A stretch of 14,343 bases of DNA from Calditrichaceae bacterium (GTDB taxonomy: Bacteria > Calditrichota > Calditrichia > Calditrichales > JBFXGD01): positions 1-14,343 of the forward strand of contig JBFXGD010000084.1 of NCBI GenBank assembly GCA_050178385.1, written 5' to 3'. The stretch's first letter is position 1, and each line of letters starts with the position of its first letter. The notes beneath the pieces were generated by a model, which made no database searches, was not told the DNA's origin, and worked only from the letters and a program-made list of their open reading frames with translations. Below are positions 1,275-14,342 of the stretch, one piece after another. The position numbers and the translations under genes are program-made.

Positions 1275-1275
1275 A

Positions 1276-2121
1276 CTATTGCTTCCTTTCCTTTAACACA
1301 AATCTCGTCAGTAACGTCACAAATAAAACCGCGAGGGTTATCAGCAAAGACGCTCCCCAGGCCATCTGCTGCCAGTCGGGATAAGGCGACATGGCGTAAT
1401 TAAATATCGTGACCGTCAAATTCGCGGTTGAATCGTTTAGCATACCCGGCCAGTAGGGACTGTTTAAGGCGGTGAATAAAAGCGGGGCGGTCTCACCGCT
1501 GACACGGGCAATGGCTAATAACACGCCAGTGATCATACCGGTTTTGGCTCCGCGAAAAACGATGGTCAGTGTAACTTTCCATCTAGGTGAACCGAGCGCC
1601 AGAGCGGATTCCCTTAAAGCGTTCGGAACCATTTGCAGCATATCTTCAGTGGTTCTCGCCACCACGGGAAGCATAATGACCGCCAGCGCGACGCTTCCTG
1701 AATAACCGGAAAAATGTCCCACCGGCACAACCAAAATGGTGTAAACAAAAACTCCAATAATAATTGAGGGAGTACCCATCAGAATATTGGAAAAAAATCT
1801 CACCCATTCCGAAAATTTTGACTGGTATCCGAACTCGCTTAAATAGATACCCGCCAGAAGCCCCATCGGCACACCAAGAATGGTGGCCAGGAAGGTAATC
1901 AGCAAGGTCCCGATCATCGCGTTGGCCAATCCCCCGCCTTCCATCCCCGGCGGAGTGGGCAATTCAGTAAAAAACGGGATATTTATCGCGCTGAAACCCC
2001 TTATTATGATCTCAAAGATAATCCAGACAAGGATAAACAATCCAAGGACCGCGGAAATCCCAGACAGAATGCTGACGAGAGCATTCTTAAATTTCCGGTA
2101 TCTGTGGGAGCGTCCGTTCAT
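1276..2121 (-). CDS. pstA: Phosphate ABC transporter permease PstA
   Basis: Multiple TM helices, [13 protein letters not shown]-like loop [26 protein letters not shown]. Start placed at ATG 2121 (ATGA overlap with the pstC stop) rather than the track start at 2157. Confidence 0.95.
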
Positions 2122-3065
2122 TGTACCCCCATGGATTTTTTGACTTTCCGCAGCCATAGCTGAGAAATCACCTGGATGATAAACGTGATCAGAAAAAGCA
2201 CCAATCCCAATTCAATCAGAGAACTCATATACATGGGCTCCGACGCCTCTGCAAATTCATTCGCCAGCGTTGCGGTGATACTGTTGGCCGGCGCGAACAG
2301 GGATGGTGAAATATGATGGCTGTTCCCGATAACAAATGTGACCGCCATGGTCTCACCGATAGCTCTTCCAAGCCCCAGAAAGGTCGCGCCGATGATTCCC
2401 TGAATTCCGTACCTGATGGTCACCTTTTTTGTCACTTCCCAGGTCGTCGATCCCATTCCATAGGATGATTCCTTCACAACAGCAGGGACCATGACAAATA
2501 CATCCCTTATTACGGAACTGATAAAAGGCAGGATCATAATCGCCAGGATAATCCCGGCGGTGAACATCCCGATTCCTATTGGAGGGCCTTCCAGAAATAT
2601 ATTATTTCCAAAAACAGTCTTCAGAGCGGGATGAATATATTTTGAAATAAAGGGCGCGAATACAAACAGCCCCCACATGCCGTATATGATACTGGGAATG
2701 GCAGCGAGCAATTCGATCGCGGCTCCGAAAAACTTACTGACCGCCGGGTGTGCGAGTTCAACCAGAAACAGCGCGATGGCAATGCTTAAGGGAACGGCGA
2801 TGATCATCGCGATCAGTGTTGAGACAATTGTTCCGTAAATACTGCTCGCTGCACCGAATATACCTTTAACGGGATCCCAGACGTTGGTGTACAGAAATCC
2901 CGCGCCAAACTTTTGAATGGATGGCCATGAGTTTACAAGAAGCTGCAAAAATATGGCCGCCATTATCAGCAGAATAAACGCAGCGCCGATGATCGTGATG
3001 ACCTTAAAGATGGCATCTGTCCTGTTTTGAGTGCTTCTTTCCTGAATGAGTTTGCTAAAATCCAT
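2118..3065 (-). CDS. pstC: Phosphate ABC transporter permease PstC
   Basis: ELLAAIPSIIYGMWGLF, GLGRAIGETMAVTFVIGN and LANEFAEA motifs; located between pstS and pstA. Confidence 0.96.
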   Translation of the reverse strand: MDFSKLIQERSTQNRTDAIFKVITIIGAAFILLIMAAIFLQLLVNSWPSIQKFGAGFLYTNVWDPVKGIFGAASSIYGTIVSTLIAMIIAVPLSIAIALFLVELAHPAVSKFFGAAIELLAAIPSIIYGMWGLFVFAPFISKYIHPALKTVFGNNIFLEGPPIGIGMFTAGIILAIMILPFISSVIRDVFVMVPAVVKESSYGMGSTTWEVTKKVTIRYGIQGIIGATFLGLGRAIGETMAVTFVIGNSHHISPSLFAPANSITATLANEFAEASEPMYMSSLIELGLVLFLITFIIQVISQLWLRKVKKSMGVQ

Positions 3066-3083
3066 TATTTCCTGTCATTCCTT

Positions 3084-3119
3084 AAAAAGGAAAGAGGGCG
3101 CATTAAACGCCTCTCTTCC
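3084..3119 (-). terminator. Imperfect stem-loop with U-tract between pstS and pstC (partial terminator or mRNA stabiliser)
   Basis: Minus strand reads GGAAGAGAGGCG-TTTAATG-CGCCCTCTTTCC-TTTTT, an 11-bp stem with two single-base bulges followed by T5. Confidence 0.6.
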
Positions 3120-3145
3120 GGTCAGTTTAAGTATTCCCCCGGCCG

Positions 3146-4225
3146 TTACTGCCAGATACTTTTACCTTCGGATTTAATTTCACTCTTCCATGTTTCCTCT
3201 ACGAGCGCGATGACATTCTCGGGTATCGGGACATAGTGCAGGTTTACCGCCAGACTCTGACCGTGGCGGTAACTCCACTCAAAGAATTCGAGTACCCGTT
3301 TCGCGGTCGTCGGGCTGCTTTGTTCCTTATGCATCAAAATGAACGACGCTCCGGTTATGGGCCATGACGTTTCACCGGGCTGATCGGTCAGAACCAGGTA
3401 ATATCCCGGGGCGTTCTGCCAATCGGCATTTGCGGCGGCCGCCTGAAATGATTCAATGGTTGGGCCGACATAATTTCCCGCTTTATTTTGAAGAAGTACA
3501 TAGTTCATTTTATTCTGTAACGCATAGGCATATTCAACATAACCAATGGCGCCATCCGTTTTTTTAACAAAAGCAGCGACACCTTCATTGCCTTTACCCG
3601 CCAGGCCCGCGGCATCCGGCCATGCCGGAGCTTTCCCGAATCCGACTTTCTCTTCCCATTCCTTTGATACCTTTGCAAGATAGTTTGTAAAAATCCATGT
3701 AGTACCTGAACCATCGGCCCGGCGTACAGTGGTGATCGCTTTATCCGGCAGCGTCATGTCGGGATTGTTTTGCTTAATTTGAGGATCATTCCATTTTTTA
3801 ATTTTTCCAAGATAGATATCGGCCAGATTCTGAGCGGTAACTTTTAGAGTTCCTTCAGCGATTCCCGGCACATTAATCACCGGTACAACACCGCCGATGA
3901 CCATCGGAAACTGAATCAGACCGCCTTCATTAAGTTCATCGACCTGTAGCGGCGCGTCAGACGCCCCAAAATCAACGGTATTGGCTTTGATCTGCGCGAT
4001 ACCGCCGCCGGATCCGATGGACTGATAATTGAGCCTGGCGCCATATAATTTTTCGTATTTATAAGCCCACTGAGAATAGATCGGATACGGGAATGATGCT
4101 CCGGCTCCGTTAATAACAGCGGTTTCCGCTTTTTCTTCAGATGTTTTGGATGTGCAGTTTGTCAGTGAAAAGGACATAAACACAAGTATAAGCAAAGTTG
4201 ATGTAAGGCTTAAAAATTTCTTCAT
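3146..4225 (-). CDS. pstS: Phosphate ABC transporter substrate-binding protein, probably a lipoprotein
   Basis: GAGASFPYP, YQSIGSGGG, DFGASDAPL, RADGSGTT and GAIGYVEYAY motifs. Signal peptide ends in lipobox-like LTN-C. AGGAG RBS at 4232-4236. Confidence 0.97.
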   Translation of the reverse strand: MKKFLSLTSTLLILVFMSFSLTNCTSKTSEEKAETAVINGAGASFPYPIYSQWAYKYEKLYGARLNYQSIGSGGGIAQIKANTVDFGASDAPLQVDELNEGGLIQFPMVIGGVVPVINVPGIAEGTLKVTAQNLADIYLGKIKKWNDPQIKQNNPDMTLPDKAITTVRRADGSGTTWIFTNYLAKVSKEWEEKVGFGKAPAWPDAAGLAGKGNEGVAAFVKKTDGAIGYVEYAYALQNKMNYVLLQNKAGNYVGPTIESFQAAAANADWQNAPGYYLVLTDQPGETSWPITGASFILMHKEQSSPTTAKRVLEFFEWSYRHGQSLAVNLHYVPIPENVIALVEETWKSEIKSEGKSIWQ

Positions 4226-4427: not shown

Positions 4428-5741
4428 TCAGACCGGTTCCTTCATTTCCCCTCCAAACTTGATTCCTATTTGCTTCATCAGCTTAAAGGGCGGTTCGCCC
4501 CCGGCAAAAATAAAAACATAAGAGTTGGATATCTCAGTCTCTTTCCCGCCCTCCTTTATAATGACAGTCGTTTCATCAATACGGGTAATTTCGGAGTTAA
4601 ATTTAACATTGATTTTCCCGCTCTCCGTCATTTGCTGAATACGTTCCTCATTGCGCTTTTTTATCCTGAAAAATTTATCTTTTCTGTAGGATAAGGTGAC
4701 CGTGTTGCCTTCCTGCCTGGCCAATCCGATTGCCGCCTCAATGGCGCTGTCACCTCCGCCTATAACAAGCAAATTTTCTTTTGTGTAGGCTTCCGCGTCG
4801 ATTAATTTATACATAACCTTTGGAAGATTTTCACCGGGGATATTTAATTTTCGTGGTGTGCCTCTTCTCCCGAGGGCGAGTATCACATAACGTGAACGGT
4901 AATTGTTGCCGGATGTTTTAATCTTAAAACCGCTGCCGTTTTTTTCGATGTGTTCGAGCTTCTCCTTTATATGAAGATTCAGATCAAATTTTGTTTCTAT
5001 CTCTTCCCAAATATCCAGAAGCTCTTCCTTGGTGTACTCAGGATGTTTTAACCAGCCGTACATGGGTAGTTCCACCGGTTTGGTCATCACTAATTTTTTA
5101 CGTGGATAATGGAGTATCGTCCCGCCCGCGCCCTGCTGATCGATAACAAGAAAGGATAAATTGTGTTTTTTAGCGGTCAGTGCCGCGCTCAGTCCGGCCG
5201 GTCCCGCGCCAACAATTATTAAGTCATGCGTGGAAGCATCCTGTCCGGGATGATTCACTTTTGACGCGATATGTTCGGCCACTTTTCGTCCCTGATTAAT
5301 CGCGTTTCTTATCAGAGCCAGGCCACCAAGCTCGCCGGCGATGTAAAGCCCTTCTATATTTGTTTCATTGAATTCGGTCATCACAGGGATGTCGTCACGG
5401 GATTTGATATCTCCAAGACCAACCTTGATCGCGCCAACCGGGCAGGCTTCCTCACACAAGCCATGACCAACACATTTCAGACCGTTTATGATGGTCGCTT
5501 TGCCGCCGACGATACCCAGGACACTGCCTTCGGGACAGGCCGCGACACAAGATCCGCAGCCGATACATTGCCACTGGTCAATCTGCGGATACTGGGCGAC
5601 CGGTTTATCGGCCCCCAGGCGTACCGCCTCCTTTTTTCGGTACAAATCTTTCTTTTGCGTCTTCCTGAATCGGAGATAATATGGTAAGAATATTGCCAGA
5701 CCAACGACAAGAGTAATAGTATATATAAAGATTGTTTCCAT
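4428..5741 (-). CDS. Membrane-anchored dicluster ferredoxin / FAD-dependent NAD(P)H oxidoreductase (TrxR/FNR-like fold, no CxxC)
   Basis: N-terminal TM helix followed by basic residues; CIGCGSCVAACP and CVGHGLCEEACP Fe-S motifs; FAD motif IIVGAGPAG; LALGRRG; NADPH-type motif VIGGGDSA followed by SYRKDKFFR. Confidence 0.88.
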   Translation of the reverse strand: METIFIYTITLVVGLAIFLPYYLRFRKTQKKDLYRKKEAVRLGADKPVAQYPQIDQWQCIGCGSCVAACPEGSVLGIVGGKATIINGLKCVGHGLCEEACPVGAIKVGLGDIKSRDDIPVMTEFNETNIEGLYIAGELGGLALIRNAINQGRKVAEHIASKVNHPGQDASTHDLIIVGAGPAGLSAALTAKKHNLSFLVIDQQGAGGTILHYPRKKLVMTKPVELPMYGWLKHPEYTKEELLDIWEEIETKFDLNLHIKEKLEHIEKNGSGFKIKTSGNNYRSRYVILALGRRGTPRKLNIPGENLPKVMYKLIDAEAYTKENLLVIGGGDSAIEAAIGLARQEGNTVTLSYRKDKFFRIKKRNEERIQQMTESGKINVKFNSEITRIDETTVIIKEGGKETEISNSYVFIFAGGEPPFKLMKQIGIKFGGEMKEPV

Positions 5742-5795
5742 TTATTGAATTTCCTGAGATGGACAGTTTAAAACGACCGCTTTGTTTTATCGATC

Positions 5796-7403
5796 TTAAA
5801 ACCTGAAACCGGCTTCGGCGGTTATACGATGTCCTTTTGTATCATCTCCCCAATCATACTCATACTGGGAAGATATAAAAAAATGTCTGCTTAATTCTAT
5901 TTGTCCGTTGAATCTGAACCATTGATTTAGGTAATTGTTGTCAGTTGCTTTCAGATTGTAATAATAATTCCCGTATGTGATACCAAAAATATGTCCGTCA
6001 TTGAATGTTTTACTAATCCGGATTGAGGGATTATACCCGGCTGTATAATAATTTGAAAAACCGGACACACTAAACTGAAGCAGCATCCCCTGACGGAAAA
6101 AATTCATCTTATTCAGTCCGGCCGAATATGAGTATGTGTTTTCTGAGTCATTCTCCCGGTTTCGGATGCCGAATCCGGCAGATAACCGGTAATCATCTAA
6201 AAGTTTGATATAAATATTTGTTCTTATCCCCTGTCTGAAAGCGTCGTCAAAAAGACTGTCCGCCATAGTGCGCAGGTCATAGGTATAATAATTTTTGCGA
6301 TTGTCATAGGATAAAGAGGCATTCACGCCGTCCGAGAACCGGTACCGGCCCGATAAATATAATCCCGACAATGAGATATTTTCGTTTGTACGGTCTTTGC
6401 GCCAGTCGCGATTCAGATCAATTTCGGCGCTTTGATAGAAGGACCATTTTTTCCCGGAAACATAATTATTCTGCAGGTAAAGGAATTCCCGGCTGACGGT
6501 GCTTCCATGATATTCACCCGCCAGGGCCAGTGTCGATTCAAGTCGCTCTGCGCCGTAATCTCCGTTCAGATAAGTGAGATACGCGCCGTATTTTTGAATA
6601 GATGTTTGAAAATCCGAATACTGCCATTCCGGTTGAGTTCCGGCGAATACACCGAGACTAAGTTGTTTTAGCATATTGTACTGCAGAAGCAGACCGTCAA
6701 TATAACCCACACCACTGAATTTATTTGAGATGATGCGTCCTAATTTATAATTGAAAAGGGCAGTTTGATCATCGTAGGAAAAAGACAGTTCATAAATCCG
6801 GTTTCGCCATTCATCAGACGGTACATGACTGTTGTAGCTTCTTTCTCTTTTATCGTAACGGGTTCTGGTTTTAAGAATAAAATTGTAGCTTTTACCCCAG
6901 AGTTGTCGCGCCTTCAAATTTACGCGGAATGTCGGTTGGCTGAAGTTCAGTCCGGCATCGGTCAAATCTTCAAAATGGTACAATTGCATCGAAATGCTGC
7001 CGTGTACATTCGATTTGGAGCGTTTGATGCTTTTGGCTGGCTTTTCCGACCAGACGCGCTGCCGGGATTGCAGTGAATCTTTTGATACTTCTGATGTTTC
7101 GCTCAGGACCGGCAGCTTAACGATGTCTCCGGGTTTTACATCCGCGGATGATTCAATCACCCTGCATGAAGATGAATGGCCTGCCACAAATACGATTTCC
7201 ATTTCCGCGATAATTTTGTCCCCCCTGCTGACAGACAAACGCATTCCTGCGGAAAGACCGTCTGTCTCACCGGCATCAATATAAACATGGTCGGCAGACA
7301 GATATTTTACCTTTGCGGTCCGCTCTCCGGTTTGGGAAAACCCCATCCCGATCATCAGCAATATGACGATCAATATTAAATATTTCATACATTCAACTTT
7401 CAT
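5796..7403 (-). CDS. Outer-membrane beta-barrel (porin-like) protein with a small N-terminal beta domain
   Basis: Sec signal peptide (alternative start ATG 7388, MKYLIL); about 400 aa of alternating amphipathic, aromatic-rich strands; C-terminal beta-signal AEAGFRF ending in Phe; adjacent to multiheme cytochromes. Confidence 0.85.
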   Translation of the reverse strand: MKVECMKYLILIVILLMIGMGFSQTGERTAKVKYLSADHVYIDAGETDGLSAGMRLSVSRGDKIIAEMEIVFVAGHSSSCRVIESSADVKPGDIVKLPVLSETSEVSKDSLQSRQRVWSEKPAKSIKRSKSNVHGSISMQLYHFEDLTDAGLNFSQPTFRVNLKARQLWGKSYNFILKTRTRYDKRERSYNSHVPSDEWRNRIYELSFSYDDQTALFNYKLGRIISNKFSGVGYIDGLLLQYNMLKQLSLGVFAGTQPEWQYSDFQTSIQKYGAYLTYLNGDYGAERLESTLALAGEYHGSTVSREFLYLQNNYVSGKKWSFYQSAEIDLNRDWRKDRTNENISLSGLYLSGRYRFSDGVNASLSYDNRKNYYTYDLRTMADSLFDDAFRQGIRTNIYIKLLDDYRLSAGFGIRNRENDSENTYSYSAGLNKMNFFRQGMLLQFSVSGFSNYYTAGYNPSIRISKTFNDGHIFGITYGNYYYNLKATDNNYLNQWFRFNGQIELSRHFFISSQYEYDWGDDTKGHRITAEAGFRF

Positions 7404-7411
7404 ACAATTTC

Positions 7412-9100
7412 TTAATCCTCAGCACGGCCCGTCGGATGACAATTATAACAGGCGTTGCTTTCATAGGCATAATTCGTCACTTCTTTGTGTTTATCATTCA
7501 GATCGGCCTGATTGCTGTGCTCGTGACAGGTGATGCATTCAAAATGGGTATAATCATTGGCACTAACATGACAATCCGCGCAAGTATTCCATTCATCCTG
7601 ATGTTTCCCGCTATAAATGGGGAAATACTGGCCGTCATGATCCCAGTTTGCAGGCTGCCACGCGCTCATCGAATGACAATCTTCACAGGTTGACGGGAAT
7701 TGCGCCGCGGCATGATTTGGATCCGTTGTACTGTTATAAGCGCTCTCATGGCAAGGGAAGCAATCTGTCGGTGTATTTGTATAACCGGTGGAATGACATT
7801 CCGCGCAATTTACACTCACATGCGCACCAACCAACGGAAAATCGGTCTGATTGTGATCAAATGAAGAAGGCGTCCAGGCCGTTGTTGAATGGCAGACCGT
7901 GCAATCATGATCAAAATTAGCGGCAACATGGTCCGGATCGTTGACACTATTAAAATCGTTTTCATGGCAAGAGAAGCAATCTGTAGGGGTATTTGCATAA
8001 CCGGTGGAATGGCAATCTGAGCAATTAACGGTCGTATGTGCCCCGGTCAATGGGAAATTCGTCTGATTATGATCAAATGAAGAAGGTGTCCAGGCCGTTG
8101 TTGAATGACAGACCGTGCAGTCATGATCAAAATTAGCGGCGAGATGATCAGGATCTTTTACACCATTAAAATCCGCTTCGTGACAGGAAAAACAGTCAGT
8201 GGGCAACATGGAATACTGTCCGTCAATGTGACAGTCTGTGCAGGCCACATTTTTATGAGCGCCGGTTAATGGAAATCCGCTTGAGGCATGATCGAAATAA
8301 GCCGGAATCCACGCGGACTCTGTATGACAAATGCTGCACTCGGTGGAAAATTGTCCCTGAGTATGATCCGGCTCTCTCGTTGCATAGTAATCCGTTTCAT
8401 GACAGGCAAAACAGGTATTATCTATCCCGCTGAACTGTGTCTGATGGCAGCTGTTACAATCCGCTTTCAGGTGCGCTCCCCGCAGAGGAAATTCAGATGT
8501 ATGCTGATAATTTGTCCGTTCCCATGTGGATGAATTGAGCAAATGGCACTCGTCACACCGGTCGTCAAACTGAGCTTTTCGATGATCCGGATTCAGGGTT
8601 GTTTTGAAGAGCTCGCCATGACAATTTTCACATTCAATCGGCGTATTGGAAAATTCATTTCGCTGTTCGGTAAAATGACACGCCCTGCAATCCACTATGG
8701 AGTGAACCCCGACCAGCGGGAACCGGGTCTGATTATGCTGCTGAAAAAGCTCCTGACGGTTTTCCCAGGACTGCGGAGTATGACAGTTCTCGCAGTCAGC
8801 GCCGAATTCGTCTTTATGAATATCCTGATGACAATCGGCACAGGCGTGCCCTATGTGCGCGAATACCGGATTTTCATGACAACTCCCGCAATCGGCGAAG
8901 CGGTGCGCTCCGGTCAAGGGATATCCCGTTTGATTATGATCAAAATCTTTCCCGGGTTGAACATCAAACCAATCCGATGTGCTATGACAGGTTGTACAAT
9001 CTAATTTGATGTCCCCGTGGGGATTTTTCAGAACTTCCTGACCGTAAACATACGGCAAAATCAGTAAAGTGGTCATGACTGTAATGATGAATGCTTTCAT
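7412..9100 (-). CDS. Exported multiheme cytochrome c with 22 CxxCH motifs (acidic)
   Basis: 22 CxxCH counted by hand; repeating FDHxxTxFPLxGAH-x4-CxxCH tri-heme module; Sec signal MKAFIITVMTTLLILPYVYG|Q with no lipobox. ATG at 9100 preferred over the track's GTG at 9106. Confidence 0.95.
   Translation of the reverse strand: MKAFIITVMTTLLILPYVYGQEVLKNPHGDIKLDCTTCHSTSDWFDVQPGKDFDHNQTGYPLTGAHRFADCGSCHENPVFAHIGHACADCHQDIHKDEFGADCENCHTPQSWENRQELFQQHNQTRFPLVGVHSIVDCRACHFTEQRNEFSNTPIECENCHGELFKTTLNPDHRKAQFDDRCDECHLLNSSTWERTNYQHTSEFPLRGAHLKADCNSCHQTQFSGIDNTCFACHETDYYATREPDHTQGQFSTECSICHTESAWIPAYFDHASSGFPLTGAHKNVACTDCHIDGQYSMLPTDCFSCHEADFNGVKDPDHLAANFDHDCTVCHSTTAWTPSSFDHNQTNFPLTGAHTTVNCSDCHSTGYANTPTDCFSCHENDFNSVNDPDHVAANFDHDCTVCHSTTAWTPSSFDHNQTDFPLVGAHVSVNCAECHSTGYTNTPTDCFPCHESAYNSTTDPNHAAAQFPSTCEDCHSMSAWQPANWDHDGQYFPIYSGKHQDEWNTCADCHVSANDYTHFECITCHEHSNQADLNDKHKEVTNYAYESNACYNCHPTGRAED
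7763..8194 (-). repeat. Intragenic tandem duplication, 2 x 216 bp (72-aa tri-heme module)
   Basis: Units 8194-7979 and 7978-7763 are 61/72 identical in protein. The DNA cores 7845-7924 and 8061-8140 are 76/80 identical. Confidence 0.93.
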
Positions 9101-9108
9101 AGACACTC

Positions 9109-10788
9109 TCAGTTATTACTAATGATATTGGCGTGACAGGATTTGCATTCTGCCGACATTGGTTTGTAAACAGTGAAATTAGTCTCATTTTTAACCGCTT
9201 TTTTATGGCATTGTTCGCATCTTACCATCCGATGCGCCCCATCCAGTTTAAAAACGGAATCACGGTTATGATCAAATTTTTCAGCAAGCCAGTCCTTTGA
9301 TGTATGACAACGTTCACACCGGATTCCCGTGGTCACATCAGATTCCTGAAACTGTCCCAGATGAATATCCGTGTGACAGTCTTTACAAAGCGGAGTCATC
9401 CCGAGAAATTGAAGCCGCTCCAGCTCTGTGCCTTTCCGGATGGGCTGATGGCAGTCCCTGCATTTCGCGGAAAGGTGACGCCCTTCAAGCGGAAATTTTG
9501 TGGCCTGATGATCAAAATTAACCTGTGTCCAGCTATTGACGCTGTGACAATGTTCACACCCGTCCATATTTGTAAGAGCTGATTTTTTACTTAGAAAATT
9601 ATCAACTTCACCCTTATGGGGGTCTTTGTGACACTCTAAGCATCTGGTTGACGGATAAGCAAACCGGGTTTTGAGTTTTCCAGCGGAGAACACGCTTTTT
9701 TCATGGCAGGCCACACAAGGCACCGCCAGATGACTGCCCGTCAAAGGATAATCGGTTAAGCGATGCTGCTCGATGGTGAATTTTGAAGGGCTGAAACCAT
9801 TGACGGTATGGCATTCTTCACATGCCCCCTTCATCACTCTGCCGGCAAAATGGCCGTCATGGTAATCACTGTGACAATCGCTGCATTTTTGAAAACGAGC
9901 AATACGGACAGAGCGCCCGGGAAGATGACACTGGCTGCATTGAACCGCCGCATGTTTTCCGAGAAGAGGATAAGCAGTTTTATTATGATCAAATCCGGCA
10001 AGTTCTGTGCTTTTCCACCCGCCTGTATTATGACATTGCGCGCAGTTCTGCCCGAATTTATTCTGATGAATATCCGCGTGACAGTCCGTACAGGTATTAA
10101 ATGTCAACGGAGTGAATTTCAAATAATCGGGATCATTCGGGTACGCGTTATCTTTGATTGTCACGTGACATTTATCGCAGGCAGTTTGCCGGTGGAGTCC
10201 TGTTAATTTATATTTTGTTTTGTCGTGGTCAAACAGCGTCGCCGGTTTCCATGATTCCATCCCGTGGCATTTGACACATGTTTCTTTGATTTGTCCACGG
10301 TGCTCGTCATGGTGACAACTTACACAATCCCGGTTTAGTCCAAGAAATGTCCGGTTGAGATCTTTGCCCTTGCTTTTTAATTTTCCGGGATTTTTAATAT
10401 GGTTTTCCCGGTGACACTCTCCGCACTTCAAAGCGGCATGTTTCCCATCAAGCGAGTAACCGGTTAATGAATGATCGAAATTCTCCTCTCCGCCTTTCCA
10501 GTAAATCAGATCGTACTCCCGTCCCTGATGCTCAATATGACAATTTTCGCATCTGCGGTAATCTTTTCCGGCATGCAGTCCTTCCCCGTTTGAGATTCTT
10601 TCTTTTAACAGTACATGGCAGTTAAGACAATAATCATCCGAAAGCTGTTGACCAATTTCATGACATTGCGTGCAATTCATCACTCCCTCCAGATGGGCAT
10701 GTGATTTATGCAAATCTCCCGGTGATAACTGAGCGAAAACCGACGTCGCCAATATGAGCGAAAACCAGAAATATAAGATTCGATACAT
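9109..10788 (-). CDS. Periplasmic multiheme cytochrome c with 20 CxxCH motifs (basic)
   Basis: 20 CxxCH counted by hand; same FDHxxTx(F/Y)xLxGxH module; N-terminal SPGDLHKSHAHLEG; Sec signal ending SVFA|Q with no lipobox. Confidence 0.95.
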   Translation of the reverse strand: MYRILYFWFSLILATSVFAQLSPGDLHKSHAHLEGVMNCTQCHEIGQQLSDDYCLNCHVLLKERISNGEGLHAGKDYRRCENCHIEHQGREYDLIYWKGGEENFDHSLTGYSLDGKHAALKCGECHRENHIKNPGKLKSKGKDLNRTFLGLNRDCVSCHHDEHRGQIKETCVKCHGMESWKPATLFDHDKTKYKLTGLHRQTACDKCHVTIKDNAYPNDPDYLKFTPLTFNTCTDCHADIHQNKFGQNCAQCHNTGGWKSTELAGFDHNKTAYPLLGKHAAVQCSQCHLPGRSVRIARFQKCSDCHSDYHDGHFAGRVMKGACEECHTVNGFSPSKFTIEQHRLTDYPLTGSHLAVPCVACHEKSVFSAGKLKTRFAYPSTRCLECHKDPHKGEVDNFLSKKSALTNMDGCEHCHSVNSWTQVNFDHQATKFPLEGRHLSAKCRDCHQPIRKGTELERLQFLGMTPLCKDCHTDIHLGQFQESDVTTGIRCERCHTSKDWLAEKFDHNRDSVFKLDGAHRMVRCEQCHKKAVKNETNFTVYKPMSAECKSCHANIISNN

Positions 10789-10826
10789 AGATTGCCTGTT
10801 TTTTTTACCATTAAATTAATTAAAAA

Positions 10827-11741
10827 TCAGAAGATCCACCGATAGCCGAGAACAACCGTTACAATGATATGAATAATCATAATCAGGTACATAATGATCG
10901 CGAATGGTTTATGAAACACATGCCAGTGATGAAACAATTTATGTGTGCTGTTCCAAAGAGTCAAACGATGTCTGATCATCGCTTTCTGCCGGGCAGCCTT
11001 TAATATGGGATTCAGCTGATCGCCGGGAATATTAAATTTTTTACGAACCGCACGCTTGATATAAAATGAGCGGACTAACCGGATCACATCACCAGTTATC
11101 ATTGAAAACAATGTTCCGATTGCAGTCTTATGTGACTTTTCCCTGCCGATGATCATAGTTTCAATCTCATCGAGAGCCACATCTTCAAGCCAAAATTCAT
11201 TTCTCAGCCGCTCCGTCAACTGCCGATCCATTTCTTCCGCTTCGCTCAGCGTCAGCTCATGTCCTCTGATATTTCTCGGGATTTGCAGATACAGATAACG
11301 TCCTACGATGCCGCTCAGAGACACCGCGATCATCGACCAGAAACTGACAGCCACAAGGCCGTTCAGCTTGAACGTGGTATGAAGGATAATAAACAAGGGT
11401 CCCATTAATCCAAAATAGATATGTATATCAAGCCAGCGGCTAAGCGAGCCCCACTTTGAAAATGTCCTGAATCGTTTGCGGACGGAATAGAGCAGCATTA
11501 ATATCATCATTGACGAGCCAAGGATACCGAAACCGTGACCGAGTAATCCGCCCGGTTTCAGAATACGGTAGTCCGCATGACGCGGTCTGTCCGTATAAGA
11601 CAATAGATAGTAATTTAATCCGTCCATTAAATAATAAATAACGACCGCAAAAGTTGCGATATAAAGAAACGCGAGAAAAATTCTGAAGGATTTGCCCTGA
11701 GTGGTATTTTTCTTAGTCTGAATTGTCATCCGCCTGCTCAT
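10827..11741 (-). CDS. Inner-membrane di-heme cytochrome b-like protein (ferric reductase-like transmembrane domain)
   Basis: About 5 TM helices; two intramembrane His pairs H107-x13-H121 (WLDIHIYFGLMGPLFIILH) and H277-x13-H291 (WHVFHKPFAIIMYLIMIIH); YSVRKR cytoplasmic loop. Alternative start ATG 11729. Confidence 0.82.
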   Translation of the reverse strand: MSRRMTIQTKKNTTQGKSFRIFLAFLYIATFAVVIYYLMDGLNYYLLSYTDRPRHADYRILKPGGLLGHGFGILGSSMMILMLLYSVRKRFRTFSKWGSLSRWLDIHIYFGLMGPLFIILHTTFKLNGLVAVSFWSMIAVSLSGIVGRYLYLQIPRNIRGHELTLSEAEEMDRQLTERLRNEFWLEDVALDEIETMIIGREKSHKTAIGTLFSMITGDVIRLVRSFYIKRAVRKKFNIPGDQLNPILKAARQKAMIRHRLTLWNSTHKLFHHWHVFHKPFAIIMYLIMIIHIIVTVVLGYRWIF

Positions 11742-11770
11742 CTGTTTAAATACAGTTTCCGTAAAATGTT

Positions 11771-11786
11771 TGCAACAACCGTGCTA
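11771..11786 (-). promoter_or_regulatory. Candidate sigma-54 (-24/-12)-like promoter for the cytochrome cluster
   Basis: Minus strand TAGCACG-GTTG-TTGCA versus consensus TGGCACG-N4-TTGCW. Spacing is correct, with one mismatch in the normally invariant GG; about 30 bp upstream of the first gene. Confidence 0.4.
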
Positions 11787-12039
11787 ATAACAAAATTGAA
11801 GTACTATTTGAAAAATATTATTCGGTTATACCCTACCGGATTGTAGAATATAATTAGTTTTCAGCATCCATACAAATGCTTCACAACACAACCAACCAAT
11901 GAACGTTTATAATTTTAAACAATTAATTCCCCTCTGCAAATAAATGTTTAAAAACCGAAACGATGTAAAAAGTGGAAAATAATTACTCAGATTTACCGGA
12001 AATACTCATGGATCGAAATGTTTCCAAATTACTATATTT

Positions 12040-12705
12040 TTACTTCCTGTTCTGTAGTGCGTCCGATGCCATTTTTCCCCATTTTGAATCGGGAGCGGTC
12101 TCTGCGGCGAGTTTAAAATAATTTTCGCTTTCTTCCTTTTTATCCTCTTTTTCAAAAGCCTGCGCGTAATGATAATAGACCAGCGCTTTTAGCTCACGCG
12201 GTCCTGATTGAAATTTTTCACCTTCGATAATGTATTGGAAGTCAATAAAACAAAATTTCCGGCGTCCCAGAAAGCCAGGCAGATTTAAGCTGTTCATTGC
12301 CCTGACGAGACGAACGTTATGATCATCAGGAGCCATGGCGACCGCACTGTCCATTATTGCCGTGCCCTTTTTGACATGTTTGATTTTATTCCACGGCATA
12401 GCGGAATCCCTTCCGTACATGGAATAAACGCTTCCAAGATAGGCCTTAGCTAAGGCATTTGAAGGATTGATATCCAGAATATCTTTCAGATACTGTTCGC
12501 TTTTTTTTACAGCCTCCTTATCACCATCCGCGCCCTGGTCATGATAGATGACGGCTAATTTCAGCATGGTCTCAGAATCACCCGGATTATTTTTTAAAAC
12601 AGCTTTCAAAGAATCTTCTTTTGTTTGACTGTAACCGGGATGATTAAACAAAACAAGAATACTGATACTCATAAATAGAATTACTGATAGTTTAGACTTA
12701 TACAT
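12040..12705 (-). CDS. Secreted TPR-like alpha-helical protein of unknown function
   Basis: Signal peptide ending PGYS|Q; TPR-type patterns LKNNPGDSETMLKLAVIY, INPSNALAKAYLGSVY, AVAMAPDD and YYHYAQAF...YFKLAAETAPDS. Confidence 0.8.
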   Translation of the reverse strand: MYKSKLSVILFMSISILVLFNHPGYSQTKEDSLKAVLKNNPGDSETMLKLAVIYHDQGADGDKEAVKKSEQYLKDILDINPSNALAKAYLGSVYSMYGRDSAMPWNKIKHVKKGTAIMDSAVAMAPDDHNVRLVRAMNSLNLPGFLGRRKFCFIDFQYIIEGEKFQSGPRELKALVYYHYAQAFEKEDKKEESENYFKLAAETAPDSKWGKMASDALQNRK

Positions 12706-12982
12706 ACTTTTTTACCCACTAAAATGTACTATAACTGAATTTATGAATATGATTTCAACAAAAAATGACCCATATTCATTCCGTTATATTTAAAATAATC
12801 CCATATTGCTAAGATTAATTTTAGACATTTATATCAATTCGTCGAATTTTGTTTTGATGATTAAAAAAATTTGTTAAGTTTGACCATATCAGGAATTATG
12901 ACCGGAATTTGTTTTTGATGATCATAAATTTGAATAAAAAATAAATATTTTAAATGATGTACTAATTTTCAGGATAAAAAAA

Positions 12983-14068
12983 ATGCCACTTGTACCTGAA
13001 CACATTAAAACCCTGGAACCGTATAAAGCGGGAAAATCAATTGATGAGCTGAAAAGTGAATTAAAGCTAAAACGCATCGTAAAACTGGCATCGAATGAAA
13101 ATCCACTTGGATCTTCCCAAAGAGCGATTCAATCGATGATCGATTCACTCAAAAACATTCACCGTTACCCCAATCCGGCCAGTTTTGAATTACGTAAGGC
13201 GCTGGCGGACCGTTTCGATGTGAAAGTTGACAACGTTATTACCGGTCATGGTTCGGAAGGAATCATGTCGGTGATTATGCGAACATTTTTTCTTGACGAT
13301 GAAGAAGCGATCAGTTCCGAAGGAACATTTATCGGTTTCCGGGTGCTCGCCCATTCACGTGGAATCAAGCTCAGGACGGTGCCGCTCAAGGATTACAAGT
13401 TCGATTTAAACGCGATCGCGGAGCAGATTACAGAAAAAACGAAGATCATTTATCTCGCGAATCCCAACAACCCCACCGGTACGATTTTCACCGTCCGTGA
13501 ATTTCTGGAATTTATAAAAAAAGTACCCGATCATGTTTTAATCATACTTGATGAAGCCTATTTTGAGTTCGCTCAGCACGATCCGGTATATCCCGATTCT
13601 ATGAAATATCGTCTCGATAACGTGATCACATTACGAACGTTTTCCAAAGCATTCGGTCTCGCGGGGATTCGAATCGGTTACGGATTTGCTCACGACCATC
13701 TTATCAGCAACCTGATGAAGGTCAAGCTGCCTTTCGAACCCAGCGTACCCGCTCAGGCGGCGGGATTAGCCGCTATGGAAGATGAAGAATTTCTTGAGAA
13801 GTATCTCAAATTAAATTATCGCGGATTACAATATTTTTATCATTTGTTTGACCGGCTTGGCCTTCGCTATATAAAATCACACGCCAATTTTGTAACGATT
13901 ATCTTGGATTCTGAAGAACAGGTCAACAAGTTAAATGAAAAACTGCTTCATCAGGGAGTGATTGTCAGACCGCTTAAAGCATTTGGATTACCAAATTGCA
14001 TCCGGGTCACCACCGGTCTTGATGATGAGAACGAGTTTTTTGCCAAAGCGCTTGAAAGAGTGTTATAA
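12983..14068 (+). CDS. hisC: Histidinol-phosphate aminotransferase (PLP-dependent)
   Basis: KLASNENPLG, RYP, YLANPNNPTG, DEAYFEF, PLP-lysine motif RTFSKAFGLAGIRIGY, IRVTTG; AGGA RBS. An aromatic amino-acid aminotransferase paralog cannot be excluded. Confidence 0.9.
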   Translation: MPLVPEHIKTLEPYKAGKSIDELKSELKLKRIVKLASNENPLGSSQRAIQSMIDSLKNIHRYPNPASFELRKALADRFDVKVDNVITGHGSEGIMSVIMRTFFLDDEEAISSEGTFIGFRVLAHSRGIKLRTVPLKDYKFDLNAIAEQITEKTKIIYLANPNNPTGTIFTVREFLEFIKKVPDHVLIILDEAYFEFAQHDPVYPDSMKYRLDNVITLRTFSKAFGLAGIRIGYGFAHDHLISNLMKVKLPFEPSVPAQAAGLAAMEDEEFLEKYLKLNYRGLQYFYHLFDRLGLRYIKSHANFVTIILDSEEQVNKLNEKLLHQGVIVRPLKAFGLPNCIRVTTGLDDENEFFAKALERVL

Positions 14069-14079
14069 GTTTAATACCG

Positions 14080-14118
14080 ACCCGGGCTATGCACCAACAT
14101 AACCCGGGTTTATTTTTT
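14080..14118 (+). terminator. Intrinsic terminator after hisC, in the gap between convergent genes
   Basis: ACCCGGGCTATG-caccaa-CATAACCCGGGT, a 12-bp stem with 1 mismatch, followed by TTATTTTTT. Confidence 0.8.
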
Positions 14119-14144
14119 ACATTCATAGGCATCACCTATCCTAA

Positions 14145-14342
14145 CTATTCATTTATCTGATTACCATGTAAAATGCGTGTATAATTTCCGGCATGCTGGA
14201 TTATAAAAACATAATCTTCTTTACACCAGATACCATTAATTGTATCATTTAAGTCGTCTCCAAAATCCAATTCTTTCCAATTATCACCATTAAAGTGATA
14301 AAATGAACTTTGAAATCCACCGGCAAACACATTGTTGGGGGA
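14145..14342 (-). CDS. C-terminal end of a gene entering from the right edge; probable beta-propeller-type repeat protein
   Basis: Frame is open to the window edge: ...SPNNVFAGGFQSSFYHFNGDNWKELDFGDDLNDTINGIWCKEDYVFIIQHAGNYTRILHGNQINE*. The SxNNVFAxG...HFNGxxW pattern resembles propeller blades. The track's GTG start at 14330 is probably internal. Confidence 0.6.
   Translation of the reverse strand, partial: SPNNVFAGGFQSSFYHFNGDNWKELDFGDDLNDTINGIWCKEDYVFIIQHAGNYTRILHGNQINE

What the first reader, a model, noticed from the sequence alone, without database searches (positions are those of the whole stretch)
4428..11741. Self-contained NAD(P)H-to-cell-surface electron wire: flavoprotein/Fe-S, cytochrome b, 42 c-hemes and a porin in one operon
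Seen: five co-oriented genes with gaps of about 55 bp or less, encoding a di-heme b membrane protein, 20- and 22-heme cytochromes, a beta-barrel and a membrane-tethered ferredoxin-FAD-NADPH enzyme. Established: characterised porin-cytochrome conduits (MtrCAB, Geobacter Pcc) connect to the quinone pool through separately encoded proteins such as CymA. NOX/ferric reductases pass electrons NADPH>FAD>heme b>heme b across a membrane. Inference: this cluster joins the two designs, a split NOX-like module feeding a long heme wire through the outer membrane, potentially bypassing quinones. The direction (metal/humic/partner-cell reduction versus electron uptake to make NADPH) cannot be read from sequence. 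The porin + two large cytochromes + His-bearing membrane protein layout recalls the computationally predicted PCC3 clusters, so part of the architecture may already be noted. I know of no biochemical characterisation.
Basis: partly seen in the sequence, partly recalled or inferred. Interest (0 to 1): 0.9.

Follow-up and report, generated by a model that had tools for sequence, protein, structure and literature searches.

The report
Flavoprotein-fed PCC3 cytochrome conduit operon
Five adjacent genes encode what looks like a complete electron path from cytoplasmic NAD(P)H through a two-heme membrane protein and 42 c-type hemes to an outer-membrane barrel; its core is the predicted but untested "PCC3" system, and the added flavoprotein suggests the path may not need quinones.

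Summary
Five co-oriented genes on the minus strand (4428-11741, gaps 2-54 bp) encode:
- a 304-aa five-helix membrane protein (IMP);
- a 20-heme and a 22-heme cytochrome c;
- a 22-strand outer-membrane barrel;
- an N-anchored ferredoxin/FAD/NAD(P)H flavoprotein.

The IMP carries the exact signature that He et al. 2017 gave for the PCC3 inner-membrane protein (two WX3HX13H motifs plus SGXXG), so the core is a PCC3-type cluster. The papers I read describe PCC3 as four genes and assume a link to quinones.

The flavoprotein is a genuine partner:
- It lies in the cluster in 50 of 51 informative loci from Calditrichota, Acidobacteriota, Bacteroidota, Ignavibacteriota, Zixibacteria and a KSB1-named MAG, in at least seven gene orders.
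- All 21 IMP-positive genomes among 41 relatives have it.
- Of the 120 best longer homologues, 90 are flavoprotein-IMP fusions, 28 are flavoprotein-cytochrome fusions and one is a triple fusion.

Best reading (about 0.55): NAD(P)H > FAD > Fe-S > heme b > heme b > c-heme wire > outside, without quinones. Direction, nucleotide use and quinone independence are untested.

This scan has reported the same system on other genomes many times. I class it as a new variant of a known kind.

The parts
10827..11741 (-). Inner-membrane protein (IMP), 304 aa, five predicted helices with a roughly 115-residue helical stretch between helices 4 and 5 (cytoplasmic by my topology reading); putative di-heme b subunit of PCC3 type
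   Evidence: ORF. Alignment A1 has invariant H107, H121, H277, H291, W103, W273 and S143-G144-x-x-G147. AF2 model pLDDT 79.6. Weak Ferric_reduct hit, E 0.0026, below cut-off. The signature equals He et al. 2017.
11379..11435 (-). W103-x3-H107-x13-H121 motif on helix 3 of the IMP (proposed axial ligands of two b hemes)
   Evidence: H107 is kept in 114 of 115 and H121 in 115 of 115 representatives.
10869..10925 (-). W273-x3-H277-x13-H291 motif on helix 5 of the IMP (the partner ligands)
   Evidence: H277 and H291 are each kept in 110 of 115 representatives.
9109..10788 (-). cytA, 559 aa, 20 CxxCH, hydrophobic N-terminal signal-like segment; probable periplasm-spanning multiheme cytochrome
   Evidence: Pfam Cytochrome_C7, c3 and MtrC/MtrF II-IV domain. 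It has 20 hemes in every full-length orthologue of the order.
7412..9106 (-). cytB, 564 aa, 22 CxxCH, signal-like N-terminus; probable barrel-threading or extracellular multiheme cytochrome
   Evidence: Heme number varies from 16 to 31 among orthologues.
5796..7403 (-). Outer-membrane protein, 535 aa: signal peptide, N-terminal beta domain (residues 29-96), low-confidence linker, 22-strand beta-barrel (residues 132-534, bases 5802-7010), C-terminal Phe
   Evidence: AF2 pLDDT 80.5. Foldseek matches PapC/FimD pores and OprD-type porins, E 5e-9 and weaker. VIA-align gives FyuA Z 17.5 (rmsd 5.2, 351 aligned), Cir 17.5 and BtuB 16.7. No Pfam or NCBIfam family.
4428..5741 (-). Flavoprotein, 437 aa: N-terminal membrane anchor (about residues 1-22), ferredoxin domain, FAD and NAD(P)H Rossmann domains of thioredoxin-reductase/YpdA type without redox-active Cys
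   Evidence: Pfam and NCBIfam. PDB profile search: YpdA/Bdr 7a7b 2.5e-43, then TrxR and TrxR-type FNR. Alignment A3. Hydrophobic segment 1-19.
5439..5567 (-). Two iron-sulfur cluster motifs: C59xxC62xxC65xxxC69P and C90xxH93xxC96xxxC100P (His in place of the second Cys)
   Evidence: Invariant in 11 of 11 sequences. His is at that place in 116 of 120 longer homologues.

Best explanation
The operon encodes a PCC3-type porin-multiheme-cytochrome conduit with a fifth subunit, a membrane-anchored, cytoplasm-facing iron-sulfur flavoprotein that works with the IMP.

Proposed path: NAD(P)H reduces FAD. Electrons pass through the two Fe-S clusters of the fused ferredoxin domain; the His-ligated cluster is the likely exit. 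They reach a b heme near the cytoplasmic face of the IMP (H107/H277), cross to a b heme near the periplasmic face (H121/H291), enter the 20-heme periplasmic cytochrome, and leave through the 22-heme cytochrome held in or at the 22-strand barrel to an extracellular acceptor such as Fe(III)/Mn(IV) minerals, humics or a partner cell.

Shown here: gene content, motifs, folds, conserved linkage and natural fusions.

Inferred: cofactor binding, topology (positive-inside rule), NAD(P)H as donor (invariant S351-Y352-R353-K354 after the second Rossmann strand suggests NADPH), outward direction and independence from quinones.

By established bioenergetics, outward electron flow from -320 mV is downhill and is helped by the membrane potential. 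It conserves no energy, so the likely role is an electron sink for redox balance.
For: 1. PCC3 identity. The IMP has W-x3-H-x13-H on helices 3 and 5 and SGxxG on helix 4, as defined by He et al. 2017 (passages read). The cluster has two large cytochromes and a barrel.

2. Linkage across phyla. Of 80 loci found with the IMP profile, 51 have at least 9 kb downstream. 50 of those 51 hold flavoprotein, barrel and cytA. Gene orders among the 51 were MFABP 24, MABPF 20, MAFBP 2 and five others once each. Retention through these rearrangements argues for function.

3. Linkage within the order. 11 of 18 loci hold all five genes. 4 are cut by contig ends, 2 are split by an insertion and 1 is a paralogue.

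4. Phyletic pattern. 21 of 41 relatives have the IMP and all 21 have the flavoprotein. 17 have neither. 3 have the flavoprotein only; these are 72-87% complete, and two of the three flavoprotein matches are partial.

5. Fusions. Among the 120 best 'longer' homologues of the flavoprotein, 90 are flavoprotein-IMP fusions, 88 of them with two or more WX3HX13H motifs. 28 are flavoprotein-TM-multiheme cytochrome fusions (13-37 CxxCH). 1 is a flavoprotein-IMP-20-heme triple fusion and 1 is something else. Domain order fits the predicted topology.

6. Parallel case. On 4 of the 4 proteobacterial plasmids I examined (a fifth hit was not opened), a short IMP with the same motifs sits between a multiheme (7 CxxCH) cytochrome and a 2Fe-2S/ferredoxin-annotated reductase. 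I scanned only the Methylophaga reductase, which is FNR-type (FAD_binding_6 + NAD_binding_1 + 2Fe-2S). A different NAD(P)H reductase appears to have been recruited to the same membrane module.

7. No disulfide chemistry. No Cys lies outside the ferredoxin domain, so the flavin's only plausible partner is Fe-S.
Against: - No experiment bears on any step.
- The IMP does not reach the Pfam Ferric_reduct cut-off (18.3 vs 28 bits).
- Its model has no convincing solved relative. Foldseek gave no match at E <= 0.001. With VIA-align the di-heme CybB (5oc0) appears only at rank 41, Z 6.7, within the noise for helical bundles.
- The literature hypothesis is a quinone-active cytochrome b (He 2017), and nothing here excludes a quinone site.
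- Some IMP relatives lack an adjacent flavoprotein. L030 is a paralogue with a 30-heme cytochrome next to efflux genes. He's Supplementary Table 6 lists 5 of 15 clusters with the 'other redox protein' absent.
- Three loci have IMP plus flavoprotein without cytochromes nearby (L045, L070, L076), so the pair may also serve other acceptors.
- Direct outward electron export depolarises the membrane and costs energy, which is unattractive as a main respiratory route.
- This genome has 26 frames with 4 or more CxxCH, so other routes exist.
- Published four-gene proteobacterial PCC3 clusters could not be checked for the flavoprotein here.
Confidence: 0.55

Rival explanations
1. The IMP is a quinol oxidase/quinone reductase, as proposed for PCC3 in the literature. 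The flavoprotein is then an auxiliary or alternative input (for example a second entry under high NAD(P)H, or a redox-poising or repair enzyme), not the main electron source.
For: He et al. 2017 compare the IMP with quinone-active cytochromes b. Published proteobacterial PCC3 clusters are described as four genes without a flavoprotein. An IMP paralogue lacks an adjacent flavoprotein (L030).
Against: 50 of 51 loci keep the flavoprotein through several gene-order changes. 90 of the 120 best longer homologues are covalent flavoprotein-IMP fusions. No quinone-site motif has been defined or found; the fifth invariant His of the order (H69) is kept in only 70 of 115 representatives.
Confidence: 0.22
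2. The same wire runs inward. Electrons taken from extracellular Fe(II), a cathode or a partner cell reduce NAD(P)+ through the flavoprotein.
For: PCC3 was first found in Fe(II) oxidisers. TrxR-type ferredoxin-NADP reductases are reversible (established knowledge of that family). In Sideroxydans sp. CL21 the IMP gene of PCC3 copy 2 was upregulated in cells that oxidised iron (passages read).
Against: Inward flow to -320 mV against an inside-negative membrane potential needs donors far more reducing than Fe(II) minerals (inference from standard potentials). No proton-motive-force-coupling subunit is in the cluster. In S. lithotrophicus ES-1 both PCC3 clusters were downregulated on Fe(II).
Confidence: 0.1
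3. The wiring is as in the best explanation, but the physiological role is detoxification or reduction of metals or oxidants at the cell surface rather than disposal of catabolic electrons.
For: At least three of the four examined proteobacterial plasmid trios lie near metal-related genes: heavy-metal ATPase and response regulator, copper resistance, or a heavy-metal-responsive regulator. The L030 paralogue sits next to genes I read as efflux and cation-diffusion genes (size and position only). The Emticicia copy is plasmid-borne in an organism recalled as aerobic.
Against: The window's neighbours are phosphate transport and a TPR protein, not resistance genes. A 42-heme wire with a barrel is heavy equipment for detoxification.
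Confidence: 0.1
4. The five genes are neighbours by chance, or the heme motifs are fortuitous.
For: None found. The promoter and terminator scans were no better than shuffles, so co-transcription is not shown.
Against: All Cys of both cytochromes lie in CxxCH motifs. Synteny, fusions and the phyletic pattern also argue against chance.
Confidence: 0.01

Closest known systems
PCC3 porin-cytochrome c gene cluster (He, Barco, Emerson, Roden 2017, PMC5566968; Gallionellaceae survey PMC9900912)
   Same: A roughly 300-aa IMP with five helices, two WX3HX13H motifs and SGXXG. A periplasmic cytochrome with about 20 hemes. A second, variable large cytochrome. A barrel gene. Very low residue-to-heme ratios (28 and 26 here).
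   Different: The papers I read describe four genes, mostly in Proteobacteria, with the IMP assumed to exchange electrons with quinones. Here, and in five or six other phylum-level lineages, a fifth gene for an Fe-S flavoprotein is part of the cluster. PCC3 itself has never been characterised biochemically.
NADPH oxidase / ferric reductase (NOX/FRE) superfamily
   Same: The logic is NAD(P)H > FAD > two bis-His b hemes stacked across the membrane, with ligands on helices 3 and 5. Fused single-chain relatives exist.
   Different: The membrane domain has five helices and misses the Pfam cut-off. The dehydrogenase is of the thioredoxin-reductase/YpdA type with an inserted two-cluster ferredoxin, not the FNR type. 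The acceptor is a multiheme cytochrome, not O2 or Fe(III) chelate. This is an analogy, not membership.
MtrCAB with CymA (Shewanella) and Geobacter porin-cytochrome conduits with ImcH/CbcL
   Same: A periplasmic multiheme cytochrome, an outer-membrane barrel and an outer cytochrome carry electrons across the envelope.
   Different: Those systems enter from the quinol pool through separately encoded quinol dehydrogenases (established knowledge). Here the barrel has 22 predicted strands (MtrB 26, recalled). There is no family-level match to DmsE/MtrA (43.8 bits vs cut-off 192.2), and the cytochromes have twice the hemes.
MHC + IMP + 'other redox protein' clusters without a porin (He et al. 2017, Supplementary Table 6)
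   Same: A short IMP with two HX13H motifs next to a 7-10-heme cytochrome and a 412-805-aa redox protein. I found the same trio on four proteobacterial plasmids. The one reductase I scanned (Methylophaga) is FNR-type with 2Fe-2S.
   Different: Those clusters have no barrel and a different reductase family. The authors judged them unlikely to act in extracellular electron transfer and did not, in the text I read, name the redox protein.
YpdA/Bdr bacillithiol-disulfide reductase and TrxR-type ferredoxin-NADP reductases
   Same: They are the closest solved relatives of the FAD/NAD(P)H domains (7a7b 2.5e-43; 3ab1, 3lzw).
   Different: The score is below the YpdA equivalog cut-off (195.7 vs 339.9 bits). 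The catalytic domains have no Cys. The protein also carries an N-terminal membrane anchor and a fused ferredoxin domain.

Membership tests
PCC3 cluster (He et al. 2017) | IMP of about 300 aa with five TM helices, SGXXG on helix 4 and WX3HX13H on helices 3 and 5 | tested here: met
   304 aa; W103x3H107x13H121, S143GxxG147, W273x3H277x13H291. Helices from the AF2 model. Definition read.
PCC3 cluster (He et al. 2017) | Two large multiheme cytochromes (periplasmic median 21 hemes; a variable extracellular one) with low residue-to-heme ratio | tested here: met
   20 and 22 CxxCH in 559 and 564 aa. cytA is constant at 20 hemes and cytB varies from 16 to 31 in relatives.
PCC3 cluster (He et al. 2017) | Adjacent outer-membrane beta-barrel (porin) gene | tested here: met
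   22-strand barrel model. Matches to solved barrels.
PCC3 cluster (He et al. 2017) | Sequence homology to the proteobacterial PCC3 proteins (for example those of Sideroxydans lithotrophicus ES-1) | not tested
   No proteobacterial PCC3 sequence could be reached. The genome-contig scan kept only the 80 best loci, and the genome search cannot be centred on Proteobacteria from this window.
NOX/FRE ferric reductase superfamily | Ferric_reduct transmembrane domain (PF01794) at family threshold | tested here: not met
   E 0.0026, 18.3 bits against a cut-off of 28, covering residues 71-133 only. Several fused relatives carry a precomputed PF01794 label.
NOX/FRE ferric reductase superfamily | FNR-type FAD_binding and NAD_binding dehydrogenase domain | tested here: not met
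   The flavoprotein is Pyr_redox_3/Pyr_redox_2. Its nearest structures are YpdA and TrxR.
MtrAB / DmsE decaheme-porin family | DmsE/MtrA-family decaheme cytochrome at family threshold | tested here: not met
   TIGR03508 scores 43.8 bits (cytA) and 21.5 bits (cytB) against a cut-off of 192.2.
MtrAB / DmsE decaheme-porin family | MtrB/PioB-type porin | tested here: inconclusive
   No Pfam or NCBIfam family for the barrel. No PDB sequence match at E <= 1. MtrB is not among the listed fold matches, which does not exclude it.
YpdA bacillithiol-disulfide reductase (TIGR04018) | Score above the equivalog cut-off | tested here: not met
   195.7 bits against 339.9.
Thioredoxin reductase | Redox-active CxxC in the NADPH domain | tested here: not met
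   All 7 Cys lie at residues 59-100, in the ferredoxin domain.
2x[4Fe-4S] bacterial ferredoxin domain | Two CxxCxxCxxxCP motifs | tested here: inconclusive
   The first motif is canonical. The second is CxxHxxCxxxCP with an invariant His. The cluster type ([4Fe-4S] with a His ligand, or [3Fe-4S]) cannot be told from sequence.

The most novel reading that the evidence does not exclude
PCC3-type conduits, and the wider family of about 4,000 IMP representatives, are bacterial 'modular NOX' systems. In them a five-helix di-heme b protein takes electrons directly from interchangeable cytoplasmic NAD(P)H reductases (a TrxR-like Fe-S flavoprotein here, an FNR-like 2Fe-2S reductase in Proteobacteria) and hands them to multiheme cytochromes. 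If so, many uncultured fermenters in at least six phylum-level lineages can export reducing power to minerals, humics or partner cells without quinones. That would be a new inner-membrane entry route for extracellular electron transfer in diderm bacteria.
Probability: 0.45. Interest if true: 0.85.

Novelty: new variant of a known kind. Interest (0 to 1): 0.72.

Why it matters
How electrons leave the cytoplasmic membrane is the least understood step of extracellular electron transfer outside Shewanella and Geobacter. All characterised diderm systems start at the quinol pool.

A conserved and often fused NAD(P)H-type flavoprotein on the PCC3 membrane subunit would give this widespread, never-tested conduit a different, NOX-like entry. 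The family has 4,151 representatives at E <= 0.001. That entry would change how metagenomic 'EET potential' is read in sediments, soils, sludge and aquifers, because it fits fermenters dumping reducing equivalents rather than respirers.

It is directly testable. Named cultured carriers exist: Emticicia oligotrophica DSM 17448, on plasmid pEMTOL02, and Maribellus luteus XSD2, locus L080 with all five genes. The roughly 770-aa natural fusions are attractive targets for expression and cryo-EM.

Tried and rejected
- Complex prediction of IMP + 2 hemes + flavoprotein gave no verdict (score 0.01, mark 0.32). It counts neither way.
- The look-up of sequencing runs for RNA listed no RNA holder, so read laying was not used and co-transcription is untested.
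- The search for longer (fused) relatives with the IMP as query found none. The same question asked with the flavoprotein found 91 fusions holding an IMP domain among the 120 listed (90 flavoprotein-IMP, 1 triple), so one search was a sensitivity failure.
- Fold search of the IMP model: Foldseek gave nothing at E <= 0.001. VIA-align wide gave only generic helical matches, with di-heme CybB 5oc0 at rank 41, Z 6.7. No known fold can be assigned or excluded.
- PDB sequence-profile searches for the IMP and the barrel gave nothing meaningful.
- The promoter and terminator scan was no better than shuffles: 25 vs 18.9±4.5 and 12 vs 7.9±3.3. The consensus used may not suit this phylum.
- I tried to reach proteobacterial genomes to ask whether canonical four-gene PCC3 clusters have the flavoprotein. 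Plasmid tblastn with the IMP and with cytA found only Emticicia at full length. Centring genome search on an E. coli locus is not possible. The question stays open.
- The representative search returned only the 150 closest IMPs, so distant members could not be sampled.
- The window's TPR protein (12040-12705) was rejected as a conserved sixth component. It has a homologue only in the same-genus locus L013.
- 'The flavoprotein is a thiol-disulfide reductase' was rejected because the catalytic domains contain no Cys.
- Literature searches for a printed description of the flavoprotein partner and targeted reading found none. bioRxiv supplements and papers outside the library were not seen.

Full report
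OBSERVATION

The window is a whole 14,343-bp contig of a 3.9-Mb, 94%-complete draft genome. On the minus strand lie five ORFs:
- IMP, 10827-11741, 304 aa
- cytA, 9109-10788, 559 aa
- cytB, 7412-9106, 564 aa
- barrel protein, 5796-7403, 535 aa
- flavoprotein, 4428-5741, 437 aa

The gaps between them are 38, 2, 8 and 54 bp. Downstream, after 202 bp, lies pstS (NCBIfam 2.2e-122), followed by frames that read like pstC, pstA and pstB. Upstream, after 298 bp, lies a 221-aa TPR protein.

cytA has 20 and cytB has 22 CxxCH motifs, and every cysteine of both proteins lies in such a motif. The nearest named loci are labelled Calditrichia, Caldithrix or Calditrichaeota, so the organism is probably a member of Calditrichota. 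The genome holds 26 open frames with four or more CxxCH; the two in this window are the richest.

THE PARTS

IMP. An alignment of 17 orthologues (A1) has these invariant residues: H107 and H121 (13 residues between them, preceded by W103), S143-G144-x-x-G147, and H277 and H291 (13 between, preceded by W273). The AF2 model (pLDDT 79.6) places them on long helices 3, 4 and 5. A helical stretch of about 115 residues lies between helices 4 and 5.

This is exactly the signature He et al. 2017 gave for the conserved inner-membrane protein of their predicted 'PCC3' clusters: about 300 aa, five helices, SGXXG on helix 4 and WX3HX13H on helices 3 and 5. They compared it with the ferric-reductase domain and with cytochrome b (passages read).

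Across 115 full-length representatives of the family, the four His are kept in 114, 115, 110 and 110 sequences. A fifth His that is invariant within the order (H69) is kept in only 70. Pfam gives only a sub-threshold Ferric_reduct hit (E 0.0026, 18.3 bits against 28). Fold and sequence searches against solved structures were uninformative.

The basic N-terminus and the R88-K89-R90 loop suggest, by the positive-inside rule, an N-in topology. That would put H107/H277 near the cytoplasmic face and H121/H291 near the periplasmic face. This is inference.

Cytochromes. Both have hydrophobic N-terminal segments and match Cytochrome_C7, c3 and MtrC/MtrF-domain models. They are far below the DmsE/MtrA family cut-off. 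In relatives cytA always has 20 hemes, while cytB varies from 16 to 31. In seven of the eleven complete loci of the order an extra 9-10-heme cytochrome precedes the barrel gene. The window lacks it, and the C-terminal third of cytB is its homologue.

Barrel. The AF2 model (pLDDT 80.5) shows a signal peptide, a small beta domain (residues 29-96), a disordered linker and 22 strands (132-534) ending in Phe. Foldseek finds usher pores and OprD-type porins. VIA-align ranks the 22-strand barrels of TonB-dependent transporters first: FyuA Z 17.5 (rmsd 5.2 over 351 residues), Cir 17.5, BtuB 16.7. Such barrels enclose a plug domain (size recalled as about 150 residues), so a lumen able to hold a heme wire is plausible.

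Flavoprotein. It has these features:
- A hydrophobic N-terminus (residues 1-19) followed by a run of Arg and Lys. This suggests a cytoplasmic body.
- C59xxC62xxC65xxxC69P and C90xxH93xxC96xxxC100P, all invariant. The His is present in 116 of 120 longer homologues.
- Two Rossmann motifs, and an invariant S351-Y352-R353-K354 after the second. By analogy with NADPH enzymes this suggests NADPH (recalled rule, not tested).

Its nearest structures are YpdA/Bdr (2.5e-43), thioredoxin reductases and TrxR-type ferredoxin-NADP reductases. It is below the YpdA equivalog cut-off. It has no Cys outside the ferredoxin domain, so it cannot do disulfide chemistry.

IS THE FLAVOPROTEIN PART OF THE SYSTEM?

Four independent lines say yes.

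(a) Within the order. I fetched 18 loci. Eleven hold all five genes. Four are cut by contig ends. Two, of one genus, are split by about 9 kb of unrelated genes, with the flavoprotein 16 kb away or on another contig. One is a paralogous IMP with a 30-heme cytochrome and no flavoprotein or barrel.

(b) Across phyla. The IMP profile found at least 592 relatives in the species-representative genomes, of which 80 loci were kept. Fifty-one have at least 9 kb downstream of the IMP gene. Fifty of these hold flavoprotein, barrel and cytA at tblastn E <= 1e-5. The remaining locus (L076) has IMP, a TPR protein and the flavoprotein only.

The labels cover Calditrichia, Acidobacteriota (Thermoanaerobaculia, Vicinamibacteria, Holophagales), Bacteroidota, Ignavibacteriota, Zixibacteria and a MAG whose name contains KSB1. 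Barrel matches in Bacteroidota and Ignavibacteriota are weak (80-130 bits) but collinear.

Gene orders among the 51 (M = IMP, F = flavoprotein, A = cytA, B = cytB, P = barrel) are IMP-flavo-cytA-cytB-barrel in 24 loci and IMP-cytA-cytB-barrel-flavo in 20. Six other arrangements account for the remaining 7. The 29 shorter loci are mostly truncated. Two of them (L045, L070) also show IMP plus flavoprotein without cytochromes.

(c) Phyletic pattern. Of 41 related genomes, 21 have the IMP and all 21 have the flavoprotein. Seventeen have neither. Three have the flavoprotein only; these genomes are 85%, 87% and 72% complete, and two of the three matches are partial. These genomes are kin, so this is not a statistical test.

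(d) Fusions. A search for longer homologues of the flavoprotein gave 410 hits among 8,000 scored candidates. I classified the 120 best with profiles built from A1 and A3.
- 90 are flavoprotein-then-IMP single chains of about 770 aa. Of these, 88 have two or more WX3HX13H motifs. The sources that name them give Planctomycetota and Phycisphaeraceae.
- 28 are the flavoprotein followed by a hydrophobic segment and a cytochrome with 13-37 CxxCH. The three named by sources are Thermoanaerobaculia and Acidobacteria; two of these are among the 28, and the third (P0004) is the unclassified hit.
- One (P0046, 1,395 aa) joins flavoprotein, IMP and a 20-heme cytochrome.
- One is neither.

In every fusion the order fits the predicted topology.

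A PARALLEL IN PROTEOBACTERIA

tblastn of the IMP against plasmids found the full five-gene set on Emticicia oligotrophica DSM 17448 plasmid pEMTOL02. There it is preceded by ccsA and annotated as 'hypothetical', 'NAD(P)-binding domain-containing' and 'cytochrome c3 family'.

It also found short IMP-like genes on plasmids of Methylophaga, Glaciecola, Acetobacter and Qipengyuania; a fifth, Salinimonas, was not opened. In all four, a 241-252-aa protein with five hydrophobic segments, HX13H motifs and SGxxG lies between two genes. One encodes a cytochrome with 7 CxxCH. The other encodes a 411-659-aa protein annotated as 2Fe-2S cluster-binding or ferredoxin. I scanned only the Methylophaga reductase; it has FAD_binding_6, NAD_binding_1 and a 2Fe-2S domain. 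At least three of the four neighbourhoods include metal-related genes.

[quoted passage not shown] The main text I read does not say what that protein is. A different NAD(P)H reductase family attached to the same kind of membrane protein supports the idea that these IMPs are fed from the cytoplasm.

MECHANISM AND ITS LIMITS

Most likely (about 0.55): NAD(P)H > FAD > two Fe-S clusters > cytoplasmic-side heme b > periplasmic-side heme b > cytA > cytB/barrel > outside.

The linkage of the parts is shown. Every electron-transfer step is inferred.

By standard potentials and an inside-negative membrane, outward flow is favourable and inward flow to NAD(P)+ is not, unless the donor is very reducing. 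Direct electron export is electrogenic in the dissipative direction, so I expect a redox-balancing sink rather than an energy-conserving respiration.

The main rival (about 0.22) keeps the literature's quinone-active IMP and makes the flavoprotein auxiliary. Nothing here excludes a quinone site.

The complex prediction gave no verdict, no RNA run was listed, and the promoter and terminator scans were at chance level.

WHAT IS KNOWN, AND NOVELTY

In the papers I read, PCC3 is described as a four-gene, functionally unverified cluster:
- He 2017: passages and supplements.
- Hoover 2023: passages.
- Zhou 2022: passages.
- Sideroxydans CL21 preprint: passages.

He 2017 holds no occurrence of 'FAD', 'flavoprotein' or 'ferredoxin' in the main text. 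Its held supplements do not list Caldithrix, Emticicia, Ignavibacteria or Acidobacteria. The Caldithrix abyssi genome paper does not mention the cluster in the passages found. Five full-text searches found no description of the flavoprotein partner.

I could not test whether the proteobacterial four-gene clusters have the flavoprotein nearby.

The IMP family is large: 4,151 representatives at E <= 0.001, 2,430 at <= 1e-10 and 795 at <= 1e-30.

This scan has already reported the same system on other genomes many times, with the same reading. Those notes gave me the lead to look for fusions and for the His-for-Cys motif, both of which I verified here.

VERDICT

This is a new variant, flavoprotein-fed and in new phyla, of a known but untested kind (PCC3). 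It has real interest because it proposes a quinone-independent entry to extracellular electron transfer that can be tested in named cultured strains.

Noticed in passing
window 456-4225 (-), and 1-438 (-): A phosphate ABC transporter operon lies directly downstream. pstS is confirmed (NF008171, 2.2e-122). The 456-1274 frame is 65.7% identical at DNA level to E. coli pstB. The two frames between read like pstC and pstA, and the partial frame at 1-438 could be phoU; these three were not tested.
   Followed up: partly
window 12040-12705 (-): A 221-aa TPR protein with a hydrophobic N-terminus lies 298 bp upstream on the same strand. A homologue was found only in the same-genus locus L013 (76% identity), so it is probably not a conserved component.
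   Followed up: yes
L066, L068, L073, L074, L076, L077, L081, L089, L099, L103: In these Ignavibacteriota and Bacteroidota loci a membrane-anchored TPR protein of about 200 aa is encoded next to the IMP gene. In nine of them it lies between the IMP and flavoprotein genes. It is unrelated by BLAST to the window's TPR protein. It may be a lineage-specific scaffold.
   Followed up: partly
L015-L019, L022, L029 (relatives of the same order): An extra 9-10-heme cytochrome of about 285 aa sits immediately before the barrel gene in seven of the eleven complete loci of the order. The window lacks it, and residues ~321-564 of cytB are its homologue. Which cytochrome threads the barrel is therefore open.
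   Followed up: partly
L013-L029, cytB orthologues: The heme number of cytB orthologues varies (16, 19, 21, 22, 25, 31). In the flavoprotein-cytochrome fusions it runs 13, 16, 19, 22, 25, 31, 34, 37, in steps of three, which suggests gain and loss of a three-heme repeat unit.
   Followed up: no
L111 (Emticicia oligotrophica DSM 17448 plasmid pEMTOL02, 78197-90781): The whole five-gene set, preceded by the cytochrome c biogenesis gene ccsA and followed by a GW-domain protein, is carried on a 100-kb plasmid of a cultured Cytophagales strain. The system can therefore be mobile, and a tractable host exists.
   Followed up: partly
L112-L115 (plasmids of Methylophaga, Glaciecola, Acetobacter, Qipengyuania): A 2Fe-2S/ferredoxin-annotated reductase (FNR-type in Methylophaga, the only one scanned), a short five-helix IMP and a cytochrome with 7 CxxCH form trios. 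They lie beside copper or heavy-metal genes, or in Glaciecola beside a [NiFe]-hydrogenase operon.
   Followed up: partly
L030 (G031:C2), 11256-14281: A paralogous IMP (35% identity) follows a 711-aa, 30-heme cytochrome. It sits next to large frames that I read as metal-efflux genes (not tested). No flavoprotein or barrel is in the 15-kb locus.
   Followed up: no
L021, L023 (one genus of relatives): The cluster is interrupted after the IMP gene by about 9 kb of unrelated frames, among them regulator- or kinase-like ones (read from N-terminal sequence only). The flavoprotein gene is 16 kb away or on another contig.
   Followed up: partly
G000 contigs C7, C4, C14, C6: The genome has 24 further frames with 4-19 CxxCH, several in clusters (for example C7 13835-22017 with 19, 11, 12 and 9 motifs). 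This points to additional cytochrome-based electron-transfer modules.
   Followed up: no
window 12983-14068 (+): A 361-aa frame reads like a class-II aminotransferase (histidinol-phosphate aminotransferase type, recalled from the sequence). It was not tested.
   Followed up: no
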